Origin: Octopus vulgaris
Lineage: Eukaryota
Direction of reading: 5' to 3'
DNA length: 64,000 bases
Assembly: GCA_951406725.2 (NCBI GenBank)
Contig: OX597823.1
Location: 113,956,001 to 114,020,000 of the forward strand
The notes beneath the pieces were generated by a model, which was given only the letters and a program-made list of their open reading frames with translations, was not told the origin of the DNA and made no database searches. Below, one piece after another: positions 33,460 to 51,327 of this stretch; position 1 is the stretch's first letter; each line of letters begins with the position of its first letter. Position numbers and translations under genes: made by a program.

Positions 33460-33648
33460 AGGGAGAGTTTACGAAAAAAACAAAAGACGAAGACAGGTGA
33501 TGTACAAAACAGATGTATTAGTATAACGCTCAGGAATAGAAGAAGTCTTTTACGTTTTGAGCCTACGCTCTTCTACAGAAAGGGACACAGAAAAAACAAG
33601 GAGAGAAAAAAATGTGCGTAGTGGCTAACGATCTATCATGACGACTGA
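33460..33648 (-). mobile_element. Short Penelope-derived hammerhead element (core GAAA mutated to AAAA)
   Basis: Reverse copy of the 46853/48737 elements; motif at 33545-33582; flanked by (TA)n. Confidence 0.75.
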
Positions 33649-34717
33649 TATATATATATATATATATATATATATATATATATATATATATATATATATA
33701 TATATATATATATATATATATATATATATATATATACGTACTCGTGGTACGGTATTTGTTTTGCATTTCATTCTCTCTTTATGGAGAGTGTATGATATTT
33801 CCGTCAACGATGAGCTGTGCATTTCACCTCAAATATCTTACAAAACATCTTACATCTCGAAAATAGAAAGAAAACGAAAAACTATATATTGGCTAAACTG
33901 GCAACATGACCATTCCTAGAAAAACAATTCATTTTATTTACCTTAATAACGATTGATAAAAAGTATTGAGCTTCACTTGTCGATTGTTGTAACAATGAAT
34001 CATGCAATGGATTAACCTAGAACTAAAAATGGGGAAGATTTTGTGATTTATTTTTCGAAATGTATTGGATAGGGTTAGAACTGTAAACGATAGGGAAACA
34101 ATTTGAATAAAAATGTTAAATATAACAGAAAAAATGCGACTATGTATCATTAATGTCTTTTTCAAACATATTCTGAAAATGACATTAGGTATATTTGATA
34201 ATTGAACTTTGACCTTTAATCACATACTCCATACCTGTGAGCTCACGGGATCTCAAGATAGCCATTTCAGAGTTCAATATATTTTGTGTTATATTTTTGA
34301 GAGTCACTTGTCAGCAAAAATTATTATTTGTGGATATTGGCGCTTTGATAGATATGGACAGTCTTCAAGTATTTTTAGAATGGCTAATAACCAAAGAGAG
34401 CGTTTGAAATTTAAATTATATATATATGAGTATCCACATATATTTCAAAAGCTAATATAAACGCGCATTAATAGTTTTCATCAGCTTTATAAAAAAATTT
34501 AATGGTATCTCTCAAGAGATACTGGGTTACAGTTAGCTGCATAAGCCTAGTAAAGTTTAGTGTGCTAGAAATAAATAGTTAGTACAATAAACCAGTGAAC
34601 AAAGTATAAACATCATAGAATTGAAACATTACTGCTACTTTGTTCCCTGACTCATTCAGCCAGTTTCTTCACAGCGAAAGGAGTTTAAATCTCGGCAACT
34701 ATATAATGTCATCAAAA

Positions 34718-34943
34718 GGGCGGCAAGTGGCAGAGACGGTAGCACGCCGCGAAATGCTTAGCGGTATTTCGTCTGTCGTTACGTTCTGAGTTCAAATTCC
34801 GCCGAGGTCGACTTTACCTTTCATCCTTTCGGGGTCGATAAATAAAGTACCAGTTTCGCACTGGGGTCGATATAATCGACTTAATCCCTTTGTATGTCCT
34901 TGTTCGCCCTCTCTGTGTTTAGCCCCTTGTGGGTAGTAAAGAA
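34718..34943 (+). mobile_element. SINE family B with 17-bp TSD
   Basis: ATATAATGTCATCAAAA at 34701-34717 and 34944-34960. Confidence 0.92.
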
Positions 34944-35975
34944 ATATAATGTCATCAAAATGTAAAGGTGAGCTAATTCTCATTTGCAATGGTTCAGATG
35001 AACATCATTATTTCGGGACGCAATACACTTTTGAATGTCTATGTAGAACTTTCTGCTGTAATAGCGATGTGCAATAATATTACTGATAAAATGCCTTAAG
35101 CTATTCGTTATAAATTAAACTTAGAATGTATGTTAGCGAAACACCATATAACCGGCGTCACGCAGAATAGAAAAACCATGTTTTTCAACAAATTTGATTA
35201 CATTTAAATAATAATCTAACCAAATTACTTTAACACAATCTAGATGCAGACATTTTCATGAAGTTCACATCAAGATGACGTTTTTCCAGGTTGCATTTTG
35301 CTCTGGGTAAAAGCTCTGCTCAGCGTTAATTCAGATCTTATATCTTTAATATTCAAACAAGTTCGATTATTGAAAGCCTTCTGCCAACGCTCTACGTTTT
35401 CGCCTTTAGAAATAAATAAAGAATACGTGAAGTAGATACAATTTCCTACCTGAGTCGGAAATGCTGATTGACACATCCGGAAATTTCTCCCCAGTCAATG
35501 AAATAAGTATTCCTATATAATCCACATCTATTGAATACAGTTTCTTAATTAAGCAGGCTTTCAGCAAATCGTTTGACGACTGCACTAATAACAATGTTGA
35601 TGAAGGTGTTGGCCTTGTAACACTTACATCATAAATCATATCTTCAAAATATAAACCTGTTACATTTTGCCTCTCGTCGACAGCTTGCCTTCAATGCACG
35701 ATCCATGTTATGAACATTAATAAATAGCAATATATTCCATAAAGTTACAACTAGTTCTAAACGGTTATACAATAGCAAGTGTTCGAAACTACCCTTATTT
35801 GTCTTATTTCTGTTTTCGAATTATGATACTCAGTAATCTCTCTCTCCCGTGTGAATGCATTTTGGAAGTGATTCTAAGGAGCAAATGTTGTTCAAACCTT
35901 GATTATCACCAGAATCGTCAATTGTTTCTTCTAAGATCAGGATGTCAACTTCGGGGAAACGGTATATGAAATCAT

Positions 35976-36207
35976 AAGGCGGCGAGCTGGCAGAATCGTT
36001 AGCACCCCGGCGAAACGCTTAGCGGTATTTCGTCTGCCGTTACGTTCTGAGTTCAAATTCAGCCGAGGTCGACTTTGCCTTTCATCCTTTCAGGGTCGAT
36101 AAATTAAGTACCAGCTTCGCACTGGAGTCGATATAATCGACTTAATACCTATGTCTATCCTTGTTTGTCCCCTCTATGTTTAGCCCCTTGTGGGTAATAA
36201 AGAAATA
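35976..36207 (+). mobile_element. SINE family B with 15-bp TSD
   Basis: GGTATATGAAATCAT at 35961-35975 and 36208-36222. Confidence 0.92.
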
Positions 36208-48130: not shown

Positions 48131-48736
48131 ATTTTATCAACCTCAAAAGAATGAAAGGAAATGTCGACCCCGGGGACATTTGAATTCAGAGCTTGAAGTC
48201 AGACGAAATTCCGCTGAGCATTTCGCTTGACCTGCTAACGATTCTGCCATATCGCCGCCTTAAAAGGAATAAGAGTGATACACTTAGAAACGTCAGGTAC
48301 CAAAAGCCAATGAAAGTAATGCAGTGGCAACCATGCAGTACAGTACCCAAGAATGGCGGCAGCACAATGTATGATACTAAGGAATATTTAAACAGTGTCA
48401 AACAAGAAGGAAAGCACACACAATTACAGGCGCGTGCAATCAAGGCTACGAACAAATGGCACACACACACACAAAACCATCATGGCACGAAAGGTTTCGG
48501 AGATAGGTAAAAAAAGGCATATATACATATAACACAGATTGTTGTTTTGTGAGTCTATGATTGTGTGAGTGCGTGTGTCTGTGATTTTTGTGTATATATG
48601 TTTCCATATACCTCTATATATGTGTATATATGTGTGCGTGAGTTTATGTATATGTATGTATCTGCATACATATATGTGCATATATGTGTGCGTGTATGTC
48701 TATGTATATATGTGTGTGTGTCTGTATATATATATA

Positions 48737-48946
48737 TGATAGATCGTTAGCCACTACACACATTTTTCCCTCCTTTTTTTCTCTCCTTTTTTCTCTCCTT
48801 GTTTTTTTTCTGTGTCCCTTTCTGTAGAAGAGCATAGGCTCGAAACGTAAAAGACTTTGTCTATTCCTGAGCGTTATACTAATACATCTGTTTGTTTTGT
48901 ACACCACCTGTCTTCCTCTTTTGGTTTTTTTCGTAAACTCTCCCCC
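48737..48946 (+). mobile_element. Short Penelope-derived element with minimal hammerhead
   Basis: CTTT-CTGTAGA-A-GAGC(ATAG)GCTC-GAAACGTA-AAAG at 48818-48853; flanked by (TA)n. Confidence 0.75.
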
Positions 48947-50249
48947 TATATATATATATATATATATATATATATATACACACATACATACGCGTGTGTG
49001 TGAGCAATGATGCATGTATATACGTATGTATATCTCTAAATATGTTGTATATAAGTGCTCACTTGTCTGTATATAAGTCAGCGTGTGCGGTTGTGAGCCA
49101 ATACGCAGAAACATCGCCGCCAGCGCGCAAACACACACACACACACACACACACATTCACACACACACACACATTCACACAGAGGCACACACATGCACCT
49201 ACACACCACATTGTTATTTCTTTCTGTTGATTAAATTATAATCAATATATCAGAGTGAAACATATTCAATTTCATAAAACAACAAGTAAACAAACAACAG
49301 AGCTGTATTCTATATTTCAAAGTAAACAAACTTCTTATCTGTAGCTAAGAGATAGCGAAACATAGTTGAATGAACAGAAGAAATATTGGATATGGGGAAT
49401 AAAGAACGGGAGTCTGGTGAATGAGATCGTAAATTTGCTGGAATTGGTTTGCCTATTCAATTTGGTATTTAAGTGGTAAGAAAAGTTATGAGTTGATTCT
49501 AAGTACGAAGCTCGCTCTCTTTCTCTCCTATATATGTATGTATTATTGTCTGGATGGATGGATGGATGGATGGATGGATGGATGGATGGATGGATGGATG
49601 GATGGATGGATAGATGGATGGATGAATGGATATATATGTATATGTACAATTTGATGTATATAATATATCTATAAATACATATTTATGTTTATGTATATAT
49701 ATATATATATATATATATATATATATAATACACACACACACACACACACACACATATATATATATATGTGTGTGTGTGTGTGTGTGTGTGTGTGTGTATG
49801 TATATGTTATATGTACGTATTTATATATATAGAAACACAGACAGACAGACACACACACACACACACACATATATGTGTGTGTGTGTGTGTGTATGTATAT
49901 AATTTCTTCGTTCATAATCTCAGTTTTATTGTTCCGTCTTGTCTCTATTCCTACTCTCTTACTCAATCTTTTGCTTTTTCTCTCCCCGTTCTTTCTCACA
50001 ATCTCATGCATACACATAGACACACACATATTTATTTATATATTTACATGTATGTGTAATAACGTGATTGTGTACATCCAAGTATATTGTTAGACCTATT
50101 GCTATATATATATACATATACGTATGCATAAACACATGAAAAACAATACAGATAGATAGATAGATAGATAGATAGATAGATAGATAGATAGATAGATAGA
50201 TAGATAGATAGATAGATAGATAGATAGATAGATAGATAGATAGATACAT

Positions 50250-51327
50250 AACGGGAAGCTTTATGAAAATAAACAAAAGACGAAGGCAGGTGGAAAACAA
50301 ACGAACAATTGTATTAGTATGGCGCTCAGGAAATATAAATAAAACAAGTCTTTAACGTTTCGAGCCTACGCTCTTCAACAGAAAGATACACAGAGAGAGA
50401 AAAACCCAGAAAGAAGGAGAGAAAAAAATGCGTGCAGTAGCTAACGAATCAACATGGCGATCTGATTTCGGCCAGAGGTCAAAGATCAAACATGAGACGC
50501 GAGAGCGAAATAAGGGGAGATAATAGGGTTGATAAAAGGGTTGAGGGACCAGCTAAAAGTGCGTGGGAGGGGTCTGGATGTGTGTATGTATAGGGTTGGT
50601 GTATGTATTAGTATGTATAGGGGTGTGTGTGTATGAGAGAGTATTAGTGCGTAAGATTGGTCTGGACGTGCGTATGTATGGGGTTGGTGTATGTATTAGT
50701 ATGTATTAGTATGTATTAGTACGTATTGGTATGTATAGGTGTGTGTGTGTGTGTGTGAGAGAGTATAAGTGCGTATGCGGGGTCTGGACGTGTGTATGTA
50801 TAGGGTTGGTGTAAGTATTAGTATGTACTGGTATGTATTAGTACGTATTAGTATGTATTAGTTGGTGTGTGTATTAGTATGGCACATCATATGTGATGTG
50901 ATGTGTAAAGTCATGTGGTGTAGTGAGGAGAAGAGGGGGAGGGGAGAAGAGGGGGGGAGAGAAGGCGAGGGGAAGAAGAGGGGAGGAGAAGGGGAAGAGG
51001 AGAGGATGGGGGAGAAGGACGGGGAGGAGGGGGATGAAGGATGAAAGAGGGAGAGGGGGAGAGAGGGAGTGAGGGAGCAGAGGGAAGGGGAAGAGGGAGG
51101 GAGAAAGAGGGAAGAAGGGAAGGGGAGTAGGGGTGAAAGGATGAAGGACTGAAGAAGTAGGGGTCGGTGGGAGAAAGGATAGGTGAGGAGGGGGAGAGGA
51201 GGGGGAGAGTTGAGACCAAATGGCGTATAAGAGCGAAGAGAGAAGATTAATTCCTGTTCACGGCGCAAACGGGAATCCGGATGGCCTCTGTGTAAGGACA
51301 AACCGAACACAGATAGGTGTTGCAACA
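50250..51327 (-). mobile_element. 5'-truncated Penelope-like element: GIY-YIG C-terminus, pyrimidine-rich/minisatellite UTR, hammerhead end
   Basis: LQHLSVFGL..SRLRREQELIFSLRSYTPFGLN (RxxRE..I..L....P.GLN); hammerhead at 50348-50389; (GATA)n on both sides. Confidence 0.82.

What the first reader, a model, noticed from the sequence alone, without database searches (positions are those of the whole stretch)
33460..50460. Family of ~200-bp Penelope-derived elements carrying a minimal hammerhead with a non-canonical core
Seen: four related copies (33545-33582 minus, 46937-46972 plus, 48818-48853 plus, 50348-50389 minus) read stem I-CUGU(A/U)GA-A-GAGC(4 nt)GCUC-GAAACGU(A/U)-stem I. Stem II is invariant while its loop varies (GUAG, GUUG, AUAG), and stem III is only the palindrome ACGU. 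All four have U at core position 6 in place of the conserved A6, plus an extra A after A9. Established: Penelope-like elements carry minimal type I hammerheads with palindromic stem III that are thought to cleave as dimers. Inference: this is a mobile, retrozyme-like non-autonomous family with a fixed variant core, either an active variant ribozyme or a structure kept for another role such as RT recognition.
Basis: partly seen in the sequence, partly recalled or inferred. Interest (0 to 1): 0.72.

Follow-up and report, generated by a model that had tools for sequence, protein, structure and literature searches.

The report
Penelope hammerhead with fixed A6U core
These four repeats are broken-off tail ends of a young, protein-coding Penelope-like jumping gene whose small hammerhead RNA motif has one normally fixed core letter changed (A to U) in about 19,000 genomic copies, likely leaving a slow but still selected self-cutting RNA (cutting untested).

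Summary
The four motifs are real (4 found, 0 by chance), but copy 33.5k has also lost G12. The extra A and ACGU stem III are the published minimal-hammerhead consensus of Penelope-like elements (PLEs); only U6 is unusual. The copies are not a non-autonomous retrozyme family. Copy 50.3k runs 1.1 kb into a GIY-YIG endonuclease end, a full element with an open 1,072-aa RT-endonuclease ORF carries U6 in both pseudo-LTRs, and longer relatives of the other three copies reach ORF remnants. Genome-wide, 18,928 exact matches have U6, 356 A6, 584 C/G6. Across seven subfamilies whose flanks differ 9-37%, 29 stem and core positions never change while the free positions 7 and 17 do (17 never G). A sister lineage fixed U4C. 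Copies do not start at the cut site in excess (about 11-15 versus 10 at a control site). No RNA data were available. Best reading: an attenuated, still selected hammerhead in an active PLE that inserts from uncut RNA. I found no A6U PLE hammerhead in print, but could not read Lunse 2017. The scan noted A6U before in at least five other genomes. New variant of a known kind.

The parts
33461..33647 (-). Copy 1: 5'-truncated PLE 3' end (subfamily with CUGUAGA core), between (TA)n tracts
   Evidence: 90% identical to a long copy that reaches the ORF (L196)
33547..33582 (-). Minimal type I hammerhead motif, U6; G12 decayed to A, so this copy is predicted dead
46852..47066 (+). Copy 2: 5'-truncated PLE 3' end (CUGUAGA subfamily), between (TA)n tracts
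46937..46972 (+). Minimal hammerhead motif, U6 at 46944; predicted cut after A17 at 46968
   Evidence: numbering by established hammerhead convention
48736..48946 (+). Copy 3: 5'-truncated PLE 3' end (CUGUAGA subfamily), between (TA)n tracts
48818..48853 (+). Minimal hammerhead motif, U6 at 48825; predicted cut after A17 at 48849
50249..51325 (-). Copy 4: about 1.08 kb 5'-truncated copy of the youngest subfamily (CUGUUGA): end of ORF, low-complexity 3' region, pseudo-LTR
   Evidence: 92% over 1,110 columns and 96% over the pseudo-LTR to full element L121
51197..51325 (-). [quoted passage not shown]
   Evidence: 100% over 37 aa to residues 920-956 of the L121 ORF; 40 of 41 listed genome matches 100% identical
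50349..50386 (-). Minimal hammerhead motif, U6 at 50378; predicted cut after U17 at 50354

Best explanation
The four repeats are 5'-truncated tail ends of an autonomous Penelope-like retrotransposon whose terminal-repeat hammerhead has A6U fixed throughout the lineage and likely works as a slowed, still selected ribozyme. Shown: the element is pseudo-LTR / 1,072-aa RT plus GIY-YIG ORF / pseudo-LTR; copies share the 3' end, stop at variable 5' points and sit in microsatellites; U6 is carried by young intact copies. Inferred: reverse transcription starts about 110-130 nt past the hammerhead and usually aborts early, which gives the ~200-bp stubs; the template is uncut RNA, so slow cleavage costs nothing at insertion; residual cleavage (as a dimer through ACGU, probably protein-assisted) is still useful at another step, such as freeing the RNA from a host or tandem transcript, which keeps the other core positions and the NUH rule fixed. 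Predicted: U6 adds a U6-A15.1 pair that zips the monomer core into an inactive rod.
For: Autonomy: full element L121 with open ORF and U6 in both pseudo-LTRs, 99.4% alike; 29 of 30 loci picked by the endonuclease DNA have the U6 motif 0.84-1.04 kb downstream; 10 of 30 longer CUGUAGA copies reach ORF remnants 67-90% identical to that ORF; in 30 pattern-picked copies the 5' reach runs from 7 to 1,266 nt, the 3' reach is 81-135 nt in 29. Fixation: 18,928 U6, 356 A6, 584 C/G6; with positions 3-9 left free, 95 of the first 100 rows have U6 (hand count); most A6 copies nest in U6 subfamilies and keep their position-7 letter, so they are likely back-mutations. Selection: 0 of 29 stem and core positions differ among 7 subfamily majorities while 63 of 133 flank columns do; position 7 takes all four letters, position 17 takes A, U or C and never G in 11 subfamilies; one compensatory stem I pair between lineages. 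Slow rather than normal: single CUGA mutants had low activity (PMC9901934, passages); a natural A6C hammerhead cleaves at under 0.1 per min but detectably (PMC3088659 section 8). Uncut template: hammerhead mutants did not affect insertion of an anole PLE in vitro, and its cleavage needed the protein (PMC11167929); no excess of copies starting at the cut site here. Zipper: predicted G5-C15.2 pairing 0.79-0.98 in natural CUGUAGA/CUGUUGA copies against 0.09-0.30 in natural A6 copies of the same subfamilies.
Against: No cleavage was measured and no RNA ends could be seen. The loop GUAG, which catalysis should not fix, is also unchanged in all 7 subfamilies, so the block may be kept as a sequence (protein or promoter site) rather than as a catalyst. 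Copies were collected by the core motif (up to 3 changes), so a subfamily with a wrecked core could be missed; freed only one half at a time and list only 100 rows. U6 itself is not shown to be selected (0 changes seen, about 0.6 expected). The zipper effect is small (about 1-2.5 kcal/mol), absent in two subfamilies (CUGUCGA, CUGUGGA groups), and the short motifs fold no better than shuffles (z -0.6 to -1.6). The cut-site test has low power and no positive control. A6U is not among the tested natural variants I could read about.
Confidence: 0.55

Rival explanations
1. Same autonomous PLE, but the motif is catalytically dead and is kept as a binding or folding element (ORF-protein recognition near the RT start, RNA dimerisation through ACGU, or part of the pseudo-LTR promoter).
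For: CUGA single mutants are nearly inactive; cleavage is dispensable for insertion in vitro; Naiad PLEs are reported to spread without canonical hammerheads (PMC8557442 passages); a sister lineage fixed another core change, U4C; the loop is also invariant; no cut-site excess.
Against: The two positions that do vary are the two that catalysis leaves free, and position 17 avoids G in 11 of 11 subfamily majorities although A-to-G would be the easiest change; the two fixed changes fall on positions 4 and 6, where natural low-activity variants are described.
Confidence: 0.27
2. Same autonomous PLE, and A6U is a fully competent variant: the dimer geometry, the extra A or the ORF protein compensates, so cleavage is as fast as in A6 relatives.
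For: Strong conservation of everything else over at least six successive subfamilies; PLE hammerhead cleavage is protein-assisted; unchecked notes report the same A6U change, and not A6G, in other genomes.
Against: No double mutant rescued the CUGA turn except the C3-G8 swap in a type III hammerhead; no compensating change is visible, as the A6 relatives share stem II and the rest of the core; U6 is predicted to stabilise an inactive rod.
Confidence: 0.14
3. One reading: a ~200-bp non-autonomous, retrozyme-like family that spreads as its own unit through circular RNA.
For: 22 of 30 pattern-picked copies reach under 100 nt upstream of the core; three of the four window copies are about 200 bp.
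Against: 5' ends form a continuum up to the ORF; no short tandem units; the motif is the minimal PLE type, not the canonical retrozyme type.
Confidence: 0.03

Closest known systems
Minimal type I hammerheads in pseudo-LTRs of metazoan Penelope-like elements (Cervera and de la Pena 2014, PMC4209133; read parts 1-2 of 4 of the text and part 2 of 3 of supplement 2)
   Same: Layout CUG-N-N-GA, one extra nucleotide, G10.1-C11.1 stem II, GAAA, palindromic CG, UH, short stem I; position in the pseudo-LTR; most copies single and truncated.
   Different: U at position 6; every row of the alignment that I could see has A6 (CUGA or UUGA); the only core covariation reported in the text read is U3-A8.
Canonical C-terminal-endonuclease PLEs of the Neptune/Nematis type (Craig et al. 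2021, PMC8557442; passages)
   Same: Single ORF with RT, DKG motif, CX4CX2C linker, C-terminal GIY-YIG with CCHH; pseudo-LTRs; 5' truncation; microsatellite targets; adjacent inverted copies.
   Different: Hammerhead core is variant; long low-complexity 3' region. Neptune versus Nematis was not decided by a tree with reference elements.
Natural low-activity core variants: A6C of phage Bcep176, U4C of a viroid (Perreault et al. 2011, PMC3088659; section 8 and passages)
   Same: Single change in the CUGA turn at position 6 or 4 with the rest of the core kept.
   Different: Those are isolated cases in three-stem monomeric hammerheads; here the change is to U, in a minimal dimer-type motif, fixed in tens of thousands of copies.
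Metazoan non-LTR retrozymes (Cervera and de la Pena 2020, PMC7229834, passages; bioRxiv 10.64898/2026.07.22.740005, part 1 of 5)
   Same: Type I hammerhead; link to PLEs; similar apparent size for the stubs.
   Different: No short tandem units, no canonical helix I/II with loop contacts, no fixed unit length; copies are continuous with an ORF.

Membership tests
EN+ Penelope-like element (Neptune/Nematis type) | Single ORF with PLE-type RT | tested here: met
   Open 1,072-aa ORF in L121; Pfam RVT_1 E 6.6e-7; YIDD and DKG seen in the sequence; 534 homologues at E<=1e-30 among 7,992 scored
EN+ Penelope-like element (Neptune/Nematis type) | C-terminal GIY-YIG endonuclease with CCHH motif and CX2-5CxxC linker | tested here: met
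   Motifs read directly in the ORF against the description; Pfam GIY-YIG did not hit this ORF but is listed for some homologues
EN+ Penelope-like element (Neptune/Nematis type) | Pseudo-LTRs, 5' truncation, microsatellite targets | tested here: met
   342-bp direct repeats 99.4% alike in L121
EN+ Penelope-like element (Neptune/Nematis type) | Placement in the Neptune clade on an RT tree with reference elements | not tested
   No reference elements were fetched; the name Neptune is by motif and recall
PLE minimal hammerhead | Extra nucleotide after A9, G10.1-C11.1, palindromic 15.2-16.2, short stem I | tested here: met
PLE minimal hammerhead | Core CUGANGA | tested here: not met
   U6 in 18,928 exact matches against 356 A6
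PLE minimal hammerhead | GAAA and NUH (H not G) | tested here: met
   73 of first 100 rows intact, the changes nearly all CpG-type and spread over subfamilies; G17 in 2 of 100 (hand count)
PLE minimal hammerhead | Covariation in stems | tested here: inconclusive
   One compensatory stem I pair between lineages (CUUU/AAAG against GUUU/AAAC); stem II invariant
PLE minimal hammerhead | Self-cleavage as a dimer | not testable with these tools
   Bench assay needed; only contigs were served
Metazoan non-LTR retrozyme | Short head-to-tail units (170-400 nt) each with a hammerhead | tested here: not met
   No such array in 33,000-52,000; genome matches are dispersed
Metazoan non-LTR retrozyme | Non-autonomous, no link to an ORF | tested here: not met
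Metazoan non-LTR retrozyme | Abundant circular RNA | not testable with these tools
   No RNA holder on record

The most novel reading that the evidence does not exclude
PLE lineages are selected to detune their own hammerhead: two sister lineages in this genome independently fixed different CUGA-turn changes (A6U, U4C) while keeping every other catalytic requirement, giving a ribozyme that stays shut as a monomer rod and cuts only when the element's own protein or a second copy opens it, a timing switch between uncut insertion template and processed RNA.
Probability: 0.2. Interest if true: 0.7.

Novelty: new variant of a known kind. Interest (0 to 1): 0.42.

Why it matters
Why Penelope-like elements carry hammerheads is stated as unclear in the literature (PMC8557442), and cleavage was dispensable in the one in vitro system. 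This genome offers a natural series on a shared stem II: A6 subfamilies, an A6U lineage with intact young elements, and a U4C lineage, so rate and fitness can be compared directly. If A6U cuts, the hammerhead consensus used in searches misses tens of thousands of motifs per genome; if it does not, the motif has a non-catalytic job that fixes the same letters.

Tried and rejected
Rfam scan: no hammerhead family among the 150 of 195 rows shown. RNA evidence: no RNA holder listed; both read layings served contigs only, show no ends, and did not even list the known variation at position 7, so they say nothing on position 6 or on expression. The ORF beside the CUGUAGA copy in L029 first looked like that subfamily's ORF; 29 of 30 relatives lacked the motif nearby and it proved to be a separate family with a 3-kb 3' region; rejected as a chance neighbour. 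An A6 ancestral subfamily inside the U6 lineage (CUGAUGA group): its A6 majority comes from rows picked for A6, and 4 of 4 other rows have U6; left open. The idea that U4C strengthens the same zipper as A6U: not supported, that lineage folds in another register. Excess of copies starting at the cut site: not seen beyond TA microhomology. One search used an off-frame protein and was redone; the protein comparison used the wrong ORF and was redone. Lunse, Weinberg and Breaker 2017 on PLE hammerhead variants, the viroid U4C paper and the Terminon paper were not held, so a prior report of A6U there cannot be excluded; supplement file 1 of PMC4209133 could not be searched, and no per-mutant value for A6U was found in the supplements of PMC9901934. 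Paper searches without a report of A6U in PLEs.
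Full report
Observation. A pattern search finds four matches in the window and none in 100 shuffles. The copies align over about 200 bp. All have U at hammerhead position 6, an extra A, stem II GAGC/GCUC, ACGU and a 4-5 bp stem I. The copy at 33.5 kb has A at G12 and is predicted dead. 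The published consensus for PLE minimal hammerheads already has the extra nucleotide and the palindrome (PMC4209133), so U6 is the only departure; every alignment row I could see there has A6.

Genome context. The window lies in a 2.8-Gb animal assembly; the named protein relatives are from molluscs. Exact counts with the rest of the motif fixed: U6 18,928, A6 356, C or G 584, of which 89 C in the first 100 rows (hand count). Leaving positions 3-9 free gives 18,691 matches; 95 of the first 100 have U6, 3 A6, 2 C6 (hand count). Leaving G12-H17 free gives 21,859; 73 of the first 100 are intact and 24 of the 27 changed rows carry only CpG-type transitions, spread over all subfamilies (hand count). 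U6 is therefore the family state and the exceptions look like decay.

What the copies are. The 50.3-kb copy continues to 51325 and ends in a GIY-YIG C-terminus. That 121-nt piece has 40 of 41 listed matches at 100% identity, all listed on one contig, so the subfamily is young. In 29 of 30 of these loci the U6 motif lies 0.84-1.04 kb downstream. Locus L121 is complete: pseudo-LTR, open 1,072-aa ORF, pseudo-LTR, both repeats with U6 and 99.4% alike. [quoted passage not shown] For the subfamily of the other three copies, 10 of 30 longer relatives reach ORF remnants 67-90% identical, and an endonuclease tree puts the young subfamily as a branch out of this group (19 rows). In 30 pattern-picked copies the 5' reach is 7-1,266 nt and the 3' reach 81-135 nt in 29. 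A fixed 3' end with ragged 5' ends in microsatellites is the known PLE pattern. Retrozymes are short tandem units with canonical hammerheads; none is seen.

History of the core. A tree of flanks without the core (93 of 127 rows used, weakly resolved) places most A6 copies inside U6 subfamilies with the same letter at position 7, and one separate clade of 8 A6 copies with stem I GUUU/AAAC. Clustering 241 of 251 copies by flanks gives seven groups in the U6 lineage whose majorities differ 9-37% in flank substitutions; 63 of 133 flank columns vary, 0 of 29 stem and core positions do (by hand, about 1 in 10^8 at the flank rate; inflated because copies were collected by the core). Position 7 takes all four letters; position 17 is A, U or C in 11 of 11 groups. 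Against a purely catalytic reading, the loop GUAG is also unchanged. One old group has an A6 majority only through rows picked for A6; whether it is the ancestor is open.

Sister lineage. A second young family, 68% identical over 730 aa, has CCGACGA (U4C), a 3-nt loop and a stem I mismatch in 8 of 8 long copies. Its lineage gives 14,093 matches, 67 of the first 100 with C4 (hand count), beside canonical subfamilies. Two lineages thus fixed different changes in the CUGA turn.

Does it cut? Not shown. Published passages: single CUGA mutants had low activity; natural A6C cuts at under 0.1 per min, and a viroid U4C variant keeps enough activity in vivo; minimal PLE hammerheads are weak even as dimers; in an anole PLE, cleavage needs the protein, is not needed for insertion, and no RNA-seq reads ended at the site. 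In the first 605 Mb, 11 start at the TA next to the cut and 4 more within -2 to +1 (48 distinct places, hand count); the control TA in the loop has 10 in the same range with a stricter pattern. No excess, low power, no positive control. Folding predicts that U6 pairs with A15.1 and zips the core into a rod: G5-C15.2 probability 0.79-0.98 in CUGUAGA and CUGUUGA copies against 0.09-0.30 in natural A6 copies, raising the cost of opening by about 1-2.5 kcal/mol in three subfamilies and not in two; the motifs fold no better than shuffles. No RNA holder was listed and only contigs were served.

Verdict. Element identity is secure (about 0.95): ordinary truncated ends of an autonomous PLE. The fixed A6U core with the rest of the motif held is real and was not found in print in six searches, but the most relevant paper (Lunse et al. 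2017) was not held. Unchecked notes of this scan report A6U in at least five other genomes; none shares this DNA by look-up, and I did not test them. I rank a slowed, still selected ribozyme first (0.55), a dead but conserved scaffold second (0.27), a fully compensated variant third (0.14), a retrozyme last (0.03).

Noticed in passing
L185-L192 (G000), about 2.9 kb past the endonuclease end; L223-L252: A sister young PLE family (68% aa identity) with a 3-kb CA-rich 3' region carries a hammerhead with U4C fixed; about two thirds of the first 100 of 14,093 matches of its lineage have C4.
   Followed up: partly
window 60374-60480 (-): U6 snRNA match, 95.6 bits, with several differences from the family consensus; probably a pseudogene.
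   Followed up: no
window 43042-43779: Four head-to-tail copies of a 184-bp unit, 91% matches, related to a dispersed repeat common in the window.
   Followed up: no
window 55342-55815 (+): 157-aa open frame that looks like a mariner-type transposase fragment (label recalled, not tested).
   Followed up: no
window 4451-6272 (-), 22772-25815 (-), 20459-21078 (-): Broken frames that look like non-LTR retrotransposon reverse transcriptases (labels recalled, not tested).
   Followed up: no
L124 7362-9501 (oriented); L121 7012-7229; L072/L073; L243/L244: Perfect or near-perfect inverted repeats next to PLE ends, up to 2.1 kb in L124; in L055 the two inverted copies differ at position 6.
   Followed up: no
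window 50601-50872: 122-bp tandem unit, 2.3 copies, inside the 3' region of the young subfamily; this region varies in length among copies.
   Followed up: no
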